This document shows, piece after piece, positions 42,001 to 51,000 of a DNA stretch of 64,000 nucleotides (position 1 is the first letter of the stretch; each line of letters opens with the position of its first letter). The position numbers were made by a program. Where the stretch lies: assembly GCF_964204865.1 (NCBI RefSeq), contig NC_135252.1:17484001-17548000 (forward strand). Reading direction: 5' to 3'. Origin of the DNA: Styela clava (lineage: Eukaryota).

Positions 42001-45000
42001 TTAATAATATCGTTATAAATTGTTCCGAAGTGTTTGATATTATAATTTGAACAAACACACGAAGAGAAATTTTATGTTCTAATATGACCTGGGAGTCAAG
42101 ATATGTAAAACTTTCCGTAAGTGATTCGAAGTTCTGTTTAATTAGGTTACGCAACTTACAATAGTTCTTATACCACTCCATTATCAAATAACATTATGAA
42201 ATATGGCAAAACGAAAGAGTGCGAACCCGAGTTTGATCGGTTTCAAATTGAATAGGATATTGGTTTTGCTACTTAATAGTTTATATCAGACTATTTGTTG
42301 CCATCTTTAACAATTTTAACTCCATTTCAACAACATTAACAACAAAAGTTTAAAATGGTAAAACCAACTTAGGTAAAAATATCATTTATAAACTTCCAGA
42401 GAAATTTAAAGTGAGAATTTTTGTCAAATTTACCTGATTGAGTTTATTTTCTCAATTTTAGGGTATCGCTAATTTCTGATTCCTAATGTTGATTTTATAT
42501 CTGAATACTGTCATTTTATTAACATTAAAATTGCATTTTATTCAATTTTAGAAAATAGTCATTAAACCATTCTACTTTGTACATATTTTCAACCAGATCG
42601 TTAGATTGCGGCGCAAAGTCTTGTTGTTCCAACTGATGTATGTATATGAATCCAACCTATCAACGCGATCGCATTTCCAGGTGCGAGTCTGGGTCGAATT
42701 TAAAACCGCAAGACCGAACTAGGCTCGACTCAAATTATTTTATTTGAATCTTAAAATTGGGCATATCGGGTTAGAATAATATTTAATTTTAGCAAATCAT
42801 TGTTTAGGGCACGTTACCATGGTAATGACTTGAAAAATATTCCTAAAAAAGAAATTTAATCTCAAGATTAGACCCGTGACGAACCCCGAAATGACCCCGA
42901 AACCACGATTCTTTCACTGAAAGATTCGGGAATTTTGTTGACAAATTCATCAAAATGTATTTCAATTCATCAAAATTACAAACGATTTTAAATTTGCGAG
43001 AAAATAAATAAAATTTGATAAGTTCTTCGAAATTGTCAATAAGCAATTTCTCTCAGACTACTAAAAGAAATGAAGCGGGTATTAAGTATTATCTAATTTG
43101 AAAAATAGTTTTAATTGGTTCAGGAGTTCGTACATAGAAGAGTTCGTACAAAAAATTGAAGATATTTTGTTGACCATTAATACTTTGGTCATTTGAATGT
43201 TTGTTTCATGCAAAGAAATAACTATCGTTTAACGCAACACGCTAGATGGCGCAACTCCAACTTTGTGTATCAGATATTTTACTTTCGTTTTGAGGTTAAC
43301 ATCGACTCCCAAACTTGAATAGATGCACGTAGACGCTCCTTTTTTTTGCGTGATCAATGCGGGTATATATAGAGCTGCTTGTGACTCAGGTATCACAGTC
43401 GAGACCGCAATATAAGAAGGATCGATAAGTTTCTTCTGTCCACGGAACGGTATACATTGCTATAATAATAGAGGTTCAACAATAAGACACTGATATTGAA
43501 GGTAGGGAATCGTCAATTTGGACGTTGATATCTTACGTTAAATTGTTAAATGTTGTTTACATCTTTCAAAAATTCTAAAATGTTCAGATCTATCTAACGT
43601 ACTATTCACATTTCGGCAAAATTCGCTTTCTTATCTAAAAAGTAATTCGAATATCGAATTTTTTTCATGTTTATATTAGTTATATTGATTAACCTATCGG
43701 CTTTTACCATTTTGTGAGGAAATAGGCACTTATTTAAATCTAAATTACCAATGTAATACTCAGTAAATCCATTGTCATGGATCATGTTTTAAAGTGTTGG
43801 TATTACTACCATCAATATTGATTATGCTAATTCCAATCTGGTATTGTTGTCCATCATGCGTGTGGTACAAGTCGAATTTTTATTAAACGCAGTTTAGCTA
43901 CGGCCAACATTCGGCCTTGTTTAAATTTGCATTCCTTCTGATCGAGGAAGTCTTTCAACAGGTACCATGGCTTTTGTCGTCATTAGTTTAACGACGACTA
44001 AATTACATAATATATTACGCGCAAATTAAACGGTCGGCTAAAATTAGAACCACATTTTTCGTGATAAGTTGGTTTTGTTATGGTTTAAACGGAAATAAAA
44101 CAAGAAGACCGATGATTAACTACCATTAACCTCGACTTAAGCCTCGAGGTATATGAAGTTCTTTTTTCTTTATAAAAAAATATCTTACTTGTTAAAACGC
44201 TTTCAGCGTGTACAAGAGGTATGATATGGTCTGAGAGAAGTTTCGAAAGAAGATTTACTTAAAATGGGGTGTCTTTCATATGGCAGAATTTTAAAAAATA
44301 GATATATTCAAACTATACGTCGAAAGATGACACAGGTTGAGGAGAATTGTGAGAATTTGATCCAAGCGTTCCAGGAAAAAACATCGTTGGCGAACAAGGT
44401 GTTTCAAGAAAAACCGAATGAACGAGTGACATCGTTTTCCTCGCGAAAAGATTCTGAAACAAGTGATCTTTCCCTCTCGGACGACTCTGAAAACGAACAG
44501 TCTTCCACAGCTAATAAAAATGAAATTCATTACGTAAAAAGTGCGAAAGTTCTCGGTATCCACAAGCAAGACAGACCGAAAGTGAACTACGTGAGTGTTA
44601 CATTAGAATTTTTTATGATTAGAATTTACGACATTACCGCAAAACTTAAAGTTTTATCAAAGGTATAAATCAATTAAAATTTCCACAAATTAAGCGTAAT
44701 TTCCACAAAATAGCAAGTATATTAGTAAGATTTTGTTAGATAATAGTCTAACTTTTTTATATAAAACAAGATATAACGCATTTGAAGCTGTGTAATAATA
44801 AAAGTTGGTACCTCCAGAAGTACGCGCACCAAGATGGCGCACAACCCGAACATAGCATGTGTGTACCGGTTAGGATTCAGGTTGTGCGACATCTTGGTGC
44901 GCATACTTCTGAAGCACCAAAAGTTGTCTTAGGACACCATGAATTTGATTTTGGTATTGCAGCTCTTCGGCATTTTTTACTGCTTCGAATGAATGACTTA

Positions 45001-48000: not shown

Positions 48001-51000
48001 GAACCTGATCCCAATATTACATGGCCGATTAAATCGAGTGTTCACGTGGCAATTTGCGAATACAAAGCAACCGAAGATGATAAAAAGGAAAATATAATCA
48101 GTCTTGAAAAAGACGAGGAAGTCGATGTCTTGGATCGTAACGAAAGTGGTAGGTGATTATTATAATTTGTGGTTAAATATTCTAATAATTAATACTTTGA
48201 AAATTAAACTTTTCATTTGCCTAGTTATTAACAAACCAAATATATATGAAAATATTTTTTATAATAAAAGAGTCGCACGCGATATTTTAATTATTTCGTC
48301 TCAGTTAGAAATATGAGTATTTCTGTAAACTTACAGCACTTAATCAAAACTCAAATTTTTAATTAATTCCGAAACTTAATTTTTTACCCGGAATTCTGAT
48401 AAGTATCCCAATAATATGCAGATTGAGGATTCTCAAAATAGGGCTCATAATTCAAATTTACTCTATCTATCGTATTATGAATATATTAGGCATATGACGT
48501 AGATTTTATTAAATATATAGAGGAAGATTTTATTTGTTTTGTCCACCAGAAAACATATACACAATAAAACATAATTAATAGAAAGCAAAATAGTTCTCGG
48601 TACAGACTGGGTGGCAACGATACGACCATGCGGTTATCGGAGTTAGTTACCACCCAATATTAATATCAATAAACATGAATAAAAAACGCTTCAGATATGA
48701 AGATATATACATATATATTTATAGTTGCTGTTATCTCTATATTGGTATTAATTGAATCATTTCATTAAGGTTGGTGGCTGGTTTCTCGTATAAACGAGAA
48801 CAATCCTTCCGACAAAGCTCCCGAATGTGGATACGTTCCGTCAGATTATCTTCAAGCTATTGAAAGAGAAGACGCTTTCAGTGATCTACTTTCCCCAGAT
48901 TCAGTTTTTGATCGTGAAAACTCGTATGAATATGTAAGTTATATTTCACATTTGTTTCTATAAATAGAGACATCAATATTGTGTCAATTTCATCAAAGCT
49001 AAAATATACCTCCTCAAAGCAAGGTCACGAAAACTCACTCAGAAATCAGAATGATCCCCGAGCGAAGCTACGGGCGACCACTAAATTGTTAAGAGCTATT
49101 GACAGTTTAAAGAATTTTAGTGTAGTACGTATTGTACGTTATTAAATAGCGATTGACGCGAGGCTTGAAACAGTTCGCGTCGATACGTTCGGGGAAACAT
49201 CTGTGAGGCAGTAAAACCCACATAACTGAAGTTTTTACCAAAATATATATAACATGAATGCAGAAATGAATCCTACAAAATTTTGGCATTTGATCTTATT
49301 TTTTATCATAAAATATTTGCATATGCTAATATGGAACAAATTTTTTTCAGGACCCAGATGTTGATGAATCCAGCATTTGTAGTAGCGAGGGAGATGCTGA
49401 CGATGAACAGCCCGCTAAAACGACAAACACTCAGAAGACAACTCAAACAAAACTGTCAAAATCTTCTCCATCGCTGTCTGACTCAAGCTCAGACAGCGCT
49501 TTTGAAGAAAACGAGTTTAAGTACACTAACAAAAATCATGCTAAGCTAATTCTACTCAGAAACGGGCACACACCGGGAATGAACAAACGACATAGTCTGC
49601 CCGCTGTCCACGAACTTACAGAATCCACCACCGAGGAAGAGTCTTCATCACCTTCATTATCCAACTCTACAGAATCATTGAATTCTCCGATAAAATCGAC
49701 AAAACTTTACAAGAAACGAAGGCAAAGAAACAAATCGCATGTTGTTTCACCACTAGCAGAATCTGGCAACGGTGTACCGTCTCTTGGTCCTCGCACGCGT
49801 TCAAGTGGAACATCTGGGGTAGGATCACGTTTGAAATCTCACGCTGCCAGAAGATCAACATTAGTCAACATGCACAACTCTGCTCTAGGAGTTTCTATGC
49901 CAAACGTTTTTTTGCCCGAATCACAAAGCAAGTTATCCACAAATGCCGCATTTGAAAGAAGAAGCACACTCGGAAATATTTCCGCTCTTCATTTTTGTGG
50001 ATCAATGCCAGATGTTCACGGAAGATCATTCAGCAATTCACCAATCCTTTCAACAATCAGTCGGAGTTCTTCAAATCTCTCAGCAGCGAATAGAGTGGGG
50101 TAGGCTTACTAAATGATTTTATCTAAATGACAGATGATAATTTGCGTTCGCAATCGTAATGACTAAAACAAAAATATAGCAAAATATCATTGTGATGTAT
50201 TAAGAGGCGGAATTCGAATTTTTAAGCACATGTTCTCTTTTGTATCTTCACTAAATTTTTACTGAACAATTTTTCGTTTAGAATGGATTATATTTCAACA
50301 AAAGAATATGAAGCAAACAACGCAGATGAATTAAGTTTCGAAGAAGGAGCCATAATTACAGTTTATCGAAGGAATCCAAATGGATGGTGGCTGGCGAGGT
50401 AAAGTTTTGAATTGATACTGTTTTTAATGAAAAACCCGGTATTGGAATTATTAAAAAATAAAGTTATATATAATACATCAGTAAAAATAAATTGGAAAAC
50501 TTCAATTTTGAAAGAAGACTAAACTTAGATGTCGATTGAATGGCCAAATAAATCTATATATATACAAAATAGCAAATACCCCCCAATGAAACTGAATTAA
50601 ACTTCAAATCTTGGTTAGATATAGCCTTCACATTGAATTTTACTATTCATCTTTGCATAACACAACGATGTCAAGGATCCCTATTATCAAGTCGTTGTGT
50701 TGGTTCCTTGAGAAAAATTAATGATTTTCATTTGTAACGTTGAACTACCAAGAATATTTGTCTGTTTGTTTTGATGCAAGTTCTTATGTTTTATTATTTC
50801 TTTCAGTTATCAAGGAAAGAACGGACTTGTCCCAGGAGTTAACTTGAAAAAGTACAACGATCCTTTGAGACGACTCAGTCTTCATGTATTTGAAATGTTG
50901 TAATATACTTATGTTGTACATTTATTGATGTTTCATTGATTTTCCGCTAGCATGCCACGGTTGACAAACATCTTGAAAATATGAATTTCTTCCATTATCA

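What the first reader, a model, noticed from the sequence alone, without database searches (positions are those of the whole stretch)
44264..50903. Atypical NADPH-oxidase-organizer-like protein: PX-SH3-[~280 aa Ser-rich spacer]-SH3
Seen: the PX is clearly of the p47phox/NOXO1/Tks type (even the intron after ...VNY matches the NCF1 position as I recall it). The two SH3 domains are split by a large disordered exon (749 nt), and the protein ends ~15 aa after SH3b. Established: p47phox and NOXO1 need adjacent tandem SH3s to bind the p22phox proline-rich tail and have a C-terminal proline-rich region for p67phox/NOXA1; Tks4/5 have 4-5 SH3s. Inference: a lineage-specific family member that cannot form the classical tandem-SH3 groove in the usual way, or does so only by exon skipping or phospho-regulation. 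This is the most plausible undescribed system in the window.
Basis: partly seen in the sequence, partly recalled or inferred. Interest (0 to 1): 0.7.

Follow-up and report, generated by a model that had tools for sequence, protein, structure and literature searches.

The report
Sea-squirt PX protein with split SH3s
A sea-squirt gene encodes a divergent relative of the NADPH-oxidase organizer proteins whose two SH3 domains are separated by a long, floppy, serine-rich stretch; the gene is real and shared by other sea squirts, but what it does is untested.

Summary
Window 44264-50903 (+) carries a 10-exon, all GT-AG gene. Exon by exon it maps onto the public 705-aa protein 'uncharacterized protein LOC120342189 [Styela clava]'. 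The window is therefore ascidian, not human.

The architecture is:
- a unique N-terminal helix;
- a PX-like domain;
- SH3a;
- a 272-aa disordered spacer (20% Ser);
- SH3b;
- a 16-aa tail.

The closest relatives are p47phox, NOXO1 and Tks proteins. SH3b corresponds to the second SH3 of their tandem pair.

The PX is degenerate: Pfam E=0.41, and the equivalents of p47phox Pro-73 and Arg-90 are replaced. There is no PxxP motif, no AIR and no third SH3.

The gene is not Styela-only. Ciona and Clavelina have orthologues with the same tail but spacers of about 76 and 55 aa, and an unnamed fragment has about 18 aa. The spacer is thus a fast-growing linker.

Subfamily placement is unresolved.

Verdict: a real, undescribed, ascidian-conserved variant of a known scaffold family. 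Its function is inferred only. Moderate interest.

The parts
44264..44590 (+). Exon 1: start codon, unique N-terminal extension (residues 1-88: predicted helix 4-48, then an acidic Ser-rich disordered stretch) and the first PX strand, ending at Y109
   Evidence: maps to P0001 1-109; GT donor. (helix 4-48, PX strand from 91). (the N-terminal segment hits no other of the 168 proteins held). (Y109 aligns with NCF1 Tyr-24).
45463..45558 (+). Exon 2: PX strands 2-3 and helix 1, with the conserved Arg (R127 = p47phox Arg-42)
   Evidence: family PX profile E=1.3e-8 on this ORF. (aligned to NCF1). (R in 52 of 53 filled family rows). (P0001 110-141).
46957..47094 (+). Exon 3: middle of the PX; modelled as helices where the family has its Pro-rich loop. 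K156 replaces the family Pro, M178 replaces the family Arg
   Evidence: P0001 142-187. (helices 149-168 and 172-191, pLDDT >90 in most blocks). (P in 51 of 53 family rows; R in 44 of 56). No profile hit for this exon alone.
47288..47379 (+). Exon 4: last PX helices (RRFF motif), ends in phase 2
   Evidence: P0001 188-217. (PX profile E=0.17, profile positions 105-124). (F204 and F205 shared with the family).
47543..47690 (+). Exon 5: linker carrying the ascidian-conserved motif W-S-x-x-G-(R/K)-T-Y-F-Y
   Evidence: P0001 219-267. (motif shared by Styela, Ciona and Clavelina). (strand 222-228, helix 229-236, pLDDT 52-68).
47959..48148 (+). Exon 6: linker plus N-terminal half of SH3a (long RT loop), ends in phase 1 inside the Gly of GWW
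   Evidence: P0001 268-330. (SH3_2 E=0.018). (SH3a profile E=9e-5). (RT-loop insertion).
48770..48933 (+). Exon 7: C-terminal half of SH3a (WW, long distal insertion, VPSDY) and the first 23 residues of the spacer
   Evidence: P0001 332-385. (E=0.023). (W332, W333 and P354 invariant in the family and kept).
49351..50099 (+). Exon 8 (749 nt): disordered Ser-rich spacer, acidic at first and then basic, with basophilic-kinase-type sites; no relative outside Styela
   Evidence: P0001 386-634. (pLDDT about 40). (composition, charge, sites). (the spacer hits only itself). (skipping it shifts the frame).
50282..50398 (+). Exon 9: N-terminal two thirds of SH3b (through GWWLA)
   Evidence: SH3_1 1.2e-9, 38 bits, above the cut-off. 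(SH3b profile 4.6e-14). (P0001 636-673).
50807..50903 (+). Exon 10: end of SH3b, conserved tail Y-N-D-P-L-R-R-L-S and the stop codon
   Evidence: P0001 675-705, ends with stop. (E=6.8e-4). (tail and stop position shared with Ciona and Clavelina; P0154 ends at the same place).

Best explanation
This is an intact, expressed-type gene for an ascidian-conserved, strongly diverged member of the PX-plus-tandem-SH3 scaffold family (p47phox, NOXO1, Tks4/5).

Shown:
- the exon structure;
- the domain order: N-terminal helix, PX-like fold, SH3a, disordered spacer, SH3b, short conserved tail;
- SH3a and SH3b are the counterparts of the first and second SH3 of the family's tandem pair;
- orthologues exist in two other ascidian orders, with much shorter spacers.

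Inferred mechanism. The protein works as an SH3 scaffold. Both SH3 domains keep the ligand-groove residues, so they probably still bind proline-rich partners. A p22phox-type tail is the obvious candidate. They may bind together, as a ligand-induced clamp held on a flexible tether, or one at a time.

The PX has lost two of the three residues reported as essential in p47phox. Membrane targeting through the classical phosphoinositide pocket is therefore doubtful and may have passed to other parts of the protein.

The protein has no proline-rich tail and no autoinhibitory region, so it cannot recruit an activator (p67phox/NOXA1) the vertebrate way. In ascidians the polarity may be reversed: Kawahara 2007 proposed that the Ciona p67phox-like protein uses its own proline-rich stretches to bind an SH3 of the organizer. 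SH3b on its tether could serve that role.

The Ser-rich spacer and the conserved R-(R/K)-L-S tail look like sites of basophilic-kinase control. The Styela spacer itself is a lineage-specific expansion of a labile linker.
For: Gene model and identity.

Family membership:
- The best solved relative is NCF1 (8wej_C, 5.1e-15).
- With residues 1-400 as query, 14 of the 19 hits other than the protein itself carry a NOXO1 name.
- The exhaustive search gave 675 hits at E<=1e-3, the top ones being PX-SH3 proteins.
- The PX segment alone aligns nearly end to end with the N-terminal PX of 99 of 168 held proteins.
- The AF2 model gives a confident PX fold (pLDDT >90) that Foldseek matches to p40phox (8.6e-7) and to the p47phox PX (1kq6, 9.2e-6, TMt 0.64).

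SH3b is the second SH3 of the pair: it aligns at about residues 225-300 of family members.

Groove residues kept: W332/W333/P354 and W670/W671/P683, each invariant in 57 of 57 other rows; D650 and E651.

Orthologues:
- Ciona P0021: 32% identity over 197 aa and 55% over 66 aa.
- Clavelina P0169.
- Fragments P0154 and P0145.
- The three ascidian proteins form a clade with 100/98 support.

Spacer lengths: 272, 76 and 18 aa (P0001, P0021, P0154), against a median of 15 in 227 other PX-SH3 proteins; about 55 aa in Clavelina.

Missing features: no PxxP; no AIR or p47_phox_C Pfam hit at E<=1; no further SH3/PX ORF in the 64 kb.

Kinase-type sites, including the tail RRLS (Ciona RRLS, Clavelina RKLS).

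The proposal that the Ciona p67phox-like PRRs bind an organizer SH3: Kawahara 2007, PMC2121648, passages seen.
Against: - No functional or expression data of any kind were available.
- Pfam does not call the PX (E=0.41).
- The equivalents of p47phox Pro-73 and Arg-90 are Lys and Met.
- In SH3b the family Tyr/Phe corresponding to p47phox Tyr-279 is Asn in Styela and His in Ciona. In SH3a the first conserved Tyr is His in Styela. Ligand binding may therefore be weakened.
- Neither AF2 model shows the packed tandem arrangement. Foldseek aligned only one SH3 of the Styela model to 1uec (70 columns). It aligned both SH3s of the Ciona model to p47phox-p22phox complexes, but only at TMt 0.43-0.47 and rmsd 7.7-12 A.
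- The Ciona and Clavelina public models lack the first half of the PX, so conservation of the PX across ascidians is unproven.
- Placement inside the family is unresolved, so a NADPH-oxidase role is no more than a family-level guess.
Confidence: 0.5

Rival explanations
1. It is a Tks-like (SH3PXD2-type) cytoskeletal or invadosome adaptor that has lost its distal SH3 domains, with no role in NADPH-oxidase organisation.
For: - NCBI names the Ciona orthologue 'SH3 and PX domain-containing protein 2A-like'.
- An AU test does not reject a tree in which the three ascidian rows are held with the 30 Tks-type rows (p=0.296).
- The PX N-terminal half is as close to Tks-type rows as to others.
- Long disordered stretches between SH3 domains are the rule in the multi-SH3 members.
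Against: - It has only two SH3 domains, and these correspond to the first two of the family.
- There is no PxxP motif and no further SH3 exon.
- In the best tree the ascidian clade lies outside the 30-row Tks-type clade (95/99).
- Its best named hits with residues 1-400 are NOXO1 proteins.
- The two readings are not exclusive: a paper passage notes that Tks5 itself acts as an organizer that binds p22phox (PMC4178035).
Confidence: 0.25
2. It is the ascidian co-orthologue of vertebrate NOXO1, so the NOXO1 lineage would predate vertebrates. In tunicates it then lost the proline-rich tail.
For: - With residues 1-400, 14 of 19 non-self hits are named NOXO1.
- SH3b's best matches after the Ciona orthologue are SH3B of NOXO1-type rows.
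- The post-SH3B motif Y-x-(N/D)-P is shared: Y in 37 of 56 and P in 43 of 52 filled rows.
- SH3a has an RT-loop insertion at the place where NOXO1 rows also have one, relative to p47/Tks-type rows.
- In the unrooted careful tree the branch that sets the other 38 rows apart from NOXO1 plus ascidians has 91/92 support.
Against: - The ascidian clade is not inside the NOXO1 clade (100/100). Both sit on long stems (0.79 and 0.75), so long-branch attraction is a real risk.
- The quick mixture-model tree placed the ascidians elsewhere.
- The AU test cannot exclude a Tks-type affinity.
- Only one p47phox-like row was in the tree.
- Kawahara 2007 reports no Nox1 or Nox3 in Ciona.
- Synteny could not be examined.
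Confidence: 0.2
3. It is a gene-model artefact: two neighbouring genes (PX-SH3 and SH3) wrongly joined, or exon 8 is really intron.
For: - The RefSeq record is a computed model and no cDNA was seen.
- The Clavelina public model of the same family is visibly fused to a flavin monooxygenase, so such errors do occur in these genomes.
Against: - All nine introns are GT-AG and the phases fit.
- The exon-8 frame is open for 257 codons (chance about 3e-9).
- Leaving exon 8 out breaks the frame.
- The same SH3a-spacer-SH3b-tail order is seen in Ciona, in Clavelina and in the unnamed fragment P0154, which holds the end of SH3a and the whole of SH3b in one 131-aa protein.
- SH3b is specifically the family's second SH3.
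Confidence: 0.04
4. It is a decaying, functionless relic of a duplicated organizer gene.
For: - The PX is degenerate.
- The proline-rich tail and the AIR are lost.
- The spacer is unconstrained and inflated.
- Some ligand-site residues are changed.
Against: - The 705-codon frame is intact over ten exons.
- Domains are modelled with pLDDT >90.
- Orthologues with conserved SH3a, SH3b, linker motif and tail exist in three ascidian orders.
- The invariant structural and groove residues are kept.
Confidence: 0.05

Closest known systems
NOXO1 (NADPH oxidase organizer 1, vertebrates)
   Same: - N-terminal PX followed by two SH3 domains and no autoinhibitory region.
- Best named hits with residues 1-400.
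- Shared Y-x-(N/D)-P segment directly after the second SH3.
- RT-loop insertion in the first SH3 at the same place.
   Different: - NOXO1 has adjacent SH3 domains (gap about 15 aa against 272).
[quoted passage not shown]
- NOXO1 keeps the PX Pro and Arg that are Lys and Met here.
- NOXO1 has no N-terminal extension.
- The ascidian clade is not nested in the NOXO1 clade.
p47phox / NCF1
   Same: - Best solved relative (8wej_C 5.1e-15).
- The PX N-terminal half aligns without gaps, including Arg-42 (R127).
- The groove tryptophans Trp-193 and Trp-263 are kept (W332, W670).
- The exon-1 end coincides with NCF1 Tyr-24 in the alignment (the NCF1 boundary is partly recalled).
   Different: - No AIR: no Pfam NCF1_PBR_AIR or p47_phox_C hit at E<=1.
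- No proline-rich region.
- The Pro-73 and Arg-90 equivalents are changed.
- The Tyr-279 equivalent is Asn.
- The SH3 domains are 272 aa apart.
Tks4/Tks5 (SH3PXD2B/A) and the invertebrate PX-multi-SH3 proteins
   Same: - PX plus a first pair of SH3 domains.
- Long disordered stretches between later SH3 domains.
- NCBI's automatic name for the Ciona orthologue.
- Not excluded by the AU test.
   Different: - Those proteins have 3-6 SH3 domains, and their first pair is adjacent.
- Here there are only two SH3 domains, and the long stretch lies inside the first pair.
- No further SH3 exon in the window.
Ciona intestinalis p47phox-like protein (PX, tandem SH3, AIR-like region, third SH3; Inoue 2005 as described in Kawahara 2007)
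   Same: - Same animal group and same family.
- Also lacks the C-terminal proline-rich region (PMC2121648, passages).
   Different: - That protein has an AIR-like region and a third SH3 at residues 340-399.
- The Ciona orthologue of the present gene (P0021) has two SH3 domains about 76-81 aa apart and ends 16 aa after the second. It is therefore a different gene.
- The Inoue paper itself was not seen.

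Membership tests
PX-tandem-SH3 scaffold superfamily (p47phox/NOXO1/Tks) | Phox-type PX domain ahead of the SH3 domains | tested here: met
   Homology and fold are met:
- NCF1 residues 5-54 align to 90-139.
- An independent family profile hits the exon-2 ORF at 1.3e-8.
- The PX segment aligns end to end with 99 of 168 held proteins.
- The AF2 model plus Foldseek matches p47phox PX 1kq6 at TMt 0.64.

Caveats: Pfam PX is below its cut-off (E=0.41, 11.6 against 21.6 bits), and the AF2 model was built from an alignment of family members.
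PX-tandem-SH3 scaffold superfamily (p47phox/NOXO1/Tks) | Two SH3 domains homologous to the family's first and second SH3, in that order | tested here: met
   - Pfam finds two SH3 stretches.
- SH3b aligns to the second SH3 (about residues 225-300) of family members.
- A2 aligns SH3a with SH3A and SH3b with SH3B.
PX-tandem-SH3 scaffold superfamily (p47phox/NOXO1/Tks) | The two SH3 domains are adjacent (a tandem or 'bis-SH3' unit) | tested here: not met
   The gap is 272 aa, against a median of 15 and a 90th percentile of 43 in 227 other PX-SH3 proteins. That set is heavily redundant for fish Tks5. Its one larger value, 276 in P0038, spans a second PX and looks like a doubled gene model.
p47phox/NOXO1 organizers (residues listed as essential in Kawahara 2007, PMC2121648) | [quoted passage not shown] | tested here: not met
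   - Arg-42 is kept: R127 (R in 52 of 53 filled rows).
- The Pro-73 column holds K156 (P in 51 of 53).
- The Arg-90 column holds M178 in all 3 ascidian rows (R in 44 of 56), with a basic residue one position earlier.

One of three is kept. The column assignment rests on alignment A2.
p47phox/NOXO1 organizers (residues listed as essential in Kawahara 2007, PMC2121648) | [quoted passage not shown] | tested here: met
   - W332 (W in 57 of 57 rows).
- Y357 (the family has Y in 48 and F in 6 of 57).
- W670 (57 of 57; also aligned directly to NCF1 Trp-263).
p47phox proper | Autoinhibitory region after the second SH3 (Pro-299 to Ser-304, Ser-328) | tested here: not met
   - No NCF1_PBR_AIR or p47_phox_C hit at E<=1.
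- The protein ends 16 aa after SH3b.
- The tail P-L-R-R-L-S resembles the core only loosely and lacks the double proline.
p47phox and NOXO1 | C-terminal proline-rich region that binds the SH3 of p67phox/NOXA1 | tested here: not met
   There are 0 PxxP motifs in the 705 aa. The stop position is conserved in Ciona and Clavelina.
p47phox and NOXO1 | Binding of the tandem SH3 to the p22phox proline-rich tail | not testable with these tools
NOXO1 proper | Falls inside the NOXO1 clade | tested here: not met
   In the careful tree of 59 rows x 299 columns the NOXO1 clade has 100/100 support without the ascidians. The ascidian clade (100/98) is adjacent in the unrooted tree, the dividing branch having 91/92 support. 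The AU test leaves other placements open.
Tks4/Tks5 (SH3PXD2) | Four or five SH3 domains with proline-rich stretches between them | tested here: not met
   There are two SH3 domains, no other SH3-like ORF in the 64 kb and no PxxP motif.

The most novel reading that the evidence does not exclude
Ascidians carry a third, so far undescribed organizer-type gene beside their p47phox-like and Tks-like genes. In it the tandem SH3 clamp has been turned into two tethered SH3 modules.

The linker, which differs 15-fold in length between species, and the conserved R-(R/K)-L-S tail would act as a kinase-controlled switch. The switch would decide whether the two domains close on one proline-rich partner (p22phox) or bind two partners separately, for example p22phox and the proline-rich tail of the ascidian p67phox-like protein.

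If the weak tree signal is real, this gene is also the pre-vertebrate sister of NOXO1. That would move the origin of the NOXO1 lineage back before the tunicate-vertebrate split.
Probability: 0.12. Interest if true: 0.6.

Novelty: new variant of a known kind. Interest (0 to 1): 0.33.

Why it matters
The p47phox tandem SH3 clamp is a classic example of two adjacent domains forming one binding groove. A natural family member with the same two domains held 18 to 272 residues apart in related species is a ready-made test of how much adjacency matters for that groove.

It would also add a third organizer-type gene to the tunicate set described in the papers seen. It bears on when NOXO1-like organizers arose.

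Against that:
- tunicate genes evolve fast;
- domain-linker inflation is common;
- the gene is already in public annotation as an uncharacterized protein;
- nothing here shows a function.

It is therefore of moderate interest to NOX and SH3 specialists and of little interest beyond them.

Tried and rejected
1. Pfam on each exon alone. Only exon 9 passed. PX was not seen in any of the 10 exons, so family profiles were built instead.
2. Complex prediction of SH3a (288-366) against SH3b plus tail (630-705). No verdict (score 0.00; controls not run; my alignment was not used). It counts neither for nor against.
3. Foldseek of the Styela and Ciona AF2 models against solved p47phox tandem SH3 structures, to see whether the two SH3s are modelled as a packed pair. 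Only one domain superposes (pTM 0.48 and 0.36). This is uninformative about the real protein.
4. The listing of cluster members, to name the unnamed hits, was switched off. Names came only, so P0154, P0145, P0111 and most rows of the trees remain unnamed.
5. Subfamily placement. FastTree (99 rows), quick and careful IQ-TREE (59 rows) agree on the ascidian clade but not on its neighbours. The AU test is not decisive.
6. An internal repeat in the spacer (R-R-S-T-L ... S-M-P-x-V, twice) is weak: 53 of 2000 shuffles reach its score.
7. The Atlas look-alike search of residues 1-292 gave only low scores (<=0.80) to NCF4, NCF1, NOXO1 and SH3PXD2B clusters. These are leads only.
8. Resemblance of the tail, and of the two R-R-S-T-L sites, to the p47phox AIR core. 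Considered, but the double proline is missing and the spacer sites are not conserved in Ciona or Clavelina.
9. Literature searches:
   - 'Styela clava' + 'NADPH oxidase': 14 papers hold both terms; none of the 10 listed, judged by title and abstract start, is about this gene.
   - 'SH3PXD2' + 'Ciona': 3 papers.
   - 'NOXO1/ascidian/tunicate/urochordate': set too loosely to be informative.

Full report
**What is there**

The window is AT-rich (GC 0.29-0.40) and holds no N. On the + strand between 44264 and 50903 I read ten exons with AG/GT borders. Their lengths sum to 2118 nt, which is 705 codons plus a stop.

The joined-model search was left out. The exon-wise steps were:
- Pfam on the ten separate translations;
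- a homologue search with the exon-8 translation alone;
- family profiles against every ORF of the window;
- a frame test of exon 9;
- a one-by-one mapping of the exons.

One search returned a single protein, P0001, 100% identical to exon 8: 'uncharacterized protein LOC120342189 [Styela clava]', 705 aa. One search shows that all 10 exon translations lie on it in order and without mismatch. Full-length analyses below use that public record. The window is therefore from an ascidian (sea squirt), not from a human.

**Check of the observation**

- Pfam finds two SH3 domains in P0001 (SH3_2 7.1e-20).
- The exon-9 translation alone passes the SH3_1 cut-off (1.2e-9).
- I built profiles from 57 family members, leaving out the ascidian rows. 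They hit the ORFs of exons 2 (PX, 1.3e-8), 6, 7, 9 and 10. Nothing else among the window's 3468 ORFs scored below E=0.7, so no further SH3 or PX exon hides in the 64 kb.
- The stretch between the SH3 profiles is 272 aa and 20% serine. Its first 70 residues have net charge -11 and the rest +12.
- AlphaFold2, run with a 62-row alignment, models the protein as follows (mean pLDDT 63, pTM 0.48):
  - a helix at 4-48;
  - disorder at 51-83;
  - a PX-like domain at 90-215 (pLDDT mostly above 90);
  - SH3a at 294-360;
  - disorder at 366-631 (pLDDT about 40);
  - SH3b at 636-689;
  - a short C-terminal helix.
- The open frame of exon 8 (257 codons) has a chance probability near 3e-9.

**The PX**

- Pfam gives E=0.41, below its cut-off, and no single exon hits PX in Pfam.
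- Homology is nevertheless real. NCF1 residues 5-54 align without gaps to 90-139. The PX segment aligns nearly end to end with the N-terminal PX of 99 of the 168 proteins then held. Foldseek matches the model to p40phox (8.6e-7) and to the p47phox PX (1kq6, TMt 0.64).
- Kawahara et al. 2007 (PMC2121648; passages read) list three PX residues as essential in p47phox. Only Arg-42 is kept (R127). The Pro-73 column holds Lys (Pro in 51 of 53 family rows). The Arg-90 column holds Met in all three ascidian proteins (Arg in 44 of 56).
- The model puts a helix where the family has its proline-rich loop.

On the intron position: in the alignment the last residue of exon 1 (Y109) falls on NCF1 Tyr-24. 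A passage of PMC6829751 places c.75_76delGT in the 5' region of NCF1 exon 2. That exon 2 begins exactly at c.73 is recalled, so the shared intron position is plausible but only partly checked.

**Relatives**

The exhaustive search gave 675 proteins at E<=1e-3. One stands far above the rest: P0021 (1.9e-44). The others are PX-SH3 proteins with two to six SH3 domains.

A profile search supplied names:
- P0021 is 'SH3 and PX domain-containing protein 2A-like [Ciona intestinalis]'.
- P0169 is a Clavelina lepadiformis model in which a flavin monooxygenase is fused to the same SH3a-spacer-SH3b-tail unit.

P0154 (131 aa, unnamed) holds the end of SH3a, a short Ser-rich linker, SH3b and the same tail. 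P0145 is an exon-6-like fragment.

Shared by these proteins are:
- the end of the PX;
- a W-S-x-x-G-(R/K)-T-Y-F-Y motif;
- SH3a with a long RT loop;
- SH3b (55% identity between Styela and Ciona);
- the tail (Y/F)-N-D-P-(L/I)-R-(R/K)-L-S, with the stop at the same place.

The spacer is not shared. It measures 272 aa in Styela, about 76-81 in Ciona, about 55 in Clavelina and about 18-21 in P0154. The median is 15 in 227 other family proteins, a set rich in redundant fish Tks5. The Styela spacer finds no relative at all.

**Place in the family**

From 105 proteins with a PX and at least two SH3 domains I dropped six, which were odd or duplicate rows. The remaining 99 gave the FastTree tree. I then picked 59 of them by hand for a careful IQ-TREE run of 299 columns.
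- The three ascidian proteins form a clade (100/98) on a long stem (0.79). An unnamed long-branch protein, P0111, joins them weakly (85/73).
- They are not inside the NOXO1 clade (100/100) or the 30-row Tks-type clade (95/99).
- In the unrooted tree they lie next to NOXO1, the dividing branch having 91/92 support. But the quick tree differed.
- An AU test does not reject holding them with the Tks-type rows (p=0.296).

I conclude only that this is a separate, fast-evolving lineage of the family.

**Comparison with what is in print**

Kawahara 2007 reports for Ciona single p47phox-like, p67phox-like and p22phox-like genes plus an SH3PXD2 gene. There the p47phox-like protein has a PX, a tandem SH3, an AIR-like region and a third SH3 at 340-399. 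A passage of PMC4178035 speaks of a single Ciona gene with a PX and three SH3 domains. P0021 has two SH3 domains and ends 16 aa after the second, so it is a different gene.

My searches found no paper describing it.

**How it probably works (inference)**

- Both SH3 domains keep the invariant groove residues: W332/W333/P354 and W670/W671/P683, each 57 of 57 in the family, plus D650 and E651. They probably still bind proline-rich ligands.
- Styela has Asn at the position of p47phox Tyr-279, and His at the first conserved Tyr of SH3a.
- There is no PxxP motif anywhere and no AIR. The vertebrate way of recruiting p67phox/NOXA1, and p47phox-type autoinhibition, are therefore both absent.
- I take the protein to be an SH3 scaffold whose two domains act on a flexible, probably phosphorylated tether. 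There are seven (R/K)(R/K)xS/T sites, and the tail site is conserved in Ciona and Clavelina. A p22phox-type tail and the proline-rich tail of the ascidian p67phox-like protein are the candidate partners.

**What stayed open**

Expression, isoforms, partners, lipid binding and the paralogue set of Styela clava all remain open. The complex prediction gave no verdict. The metagenome and viral contig collections and the paper supplements were closed.

**Verdict**

This is a real, ascidian-conserved, undescribed variant of a known scaffold family, of moderate interest.

Noticed in passing
window 5266-9756, - strand: Exons of an M18 (aspartyl aminopeptidase-type) peptidase gene. The ORF at 9295-9756 matches Peptidase_M18 profile positions 1-132 (6.3e-51). 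The ORF at 5266-5622 matches positions 345-432 (2.8e-30).
   Followed up: partly
window 11741-18173, + strand: A Pao/BEL-type LTR retrotransposon with long open frames:
- a gag-like ORF (DUF1759);
- Peptidase_A17, the Pao retrotransposon peptidase (1e-49);
- integrase (Integrase_H2C2, rve, DUF5641).
It looks young. Its LTRs were not sought.
   Followed up: partly
window 20302-21273, + strand: A 323-codon ORF matching only the C-terminal part of the reverse-transcriptase profile RVT_1 (9.3e-10). It is probably a truncated non-LTR element.
   Followed up: no
window 54322-55718, + strand: An actin gene in three coding pieces (Actin profile positions 3-144, 144-291 and 299-410). It lies 3.4 kb downstream of the finding on the same strand. 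No link to the finding was shown.
   Followed up: partly
window about 44805-44920 (intron 1 of the gene), with copies at 34604-34711, 35770-35880, 36483-36603 and 61956-62063, and weaker ones near 63287 and 6843: A repeat of about 110 bp. It matches itself in reverse orientation and has at least five further copies of 71-90% identity in the window. It looks like a MITE-like palindromic element.
   Followed up: partly
window 44264-44410 (P0001 residues 1-48): The protein starts Met-Gly-Cys and is modelled as one long helix over residues 4-48 (pLDDT about 82). This extension has no relative among the proteins held. A Gly-2/Cys-3 start recalls dually acylated proteins, but the residue at position 6 does not fit the usual myristoylation rule. 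Both points are recalled, not tested.
   Followed up: no
P0169 (public Clavelina lepadiformis model) and P0021 (public Ciona model): The Clavelina record joins a flavin-monooxygenase to the SH3a-SH3b unit, which is probably an annotation fusion. Both the Clavelina and the Ciona models lack the first half of the PX. Whether those exons exist in the two genomes could not be checked.
   Followed up: no
P0111 (unnamed, 302 aa): A long-branch protein with a PX lacking the proline loop, two adjacent SH3 domains and an end just after Y-D-N. It groups weakly with the ascidian clade (85/73). It could be the orthologue from a more distant tunicate, with the short ancestral linker. Its source is unknown.
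   Followed up: no
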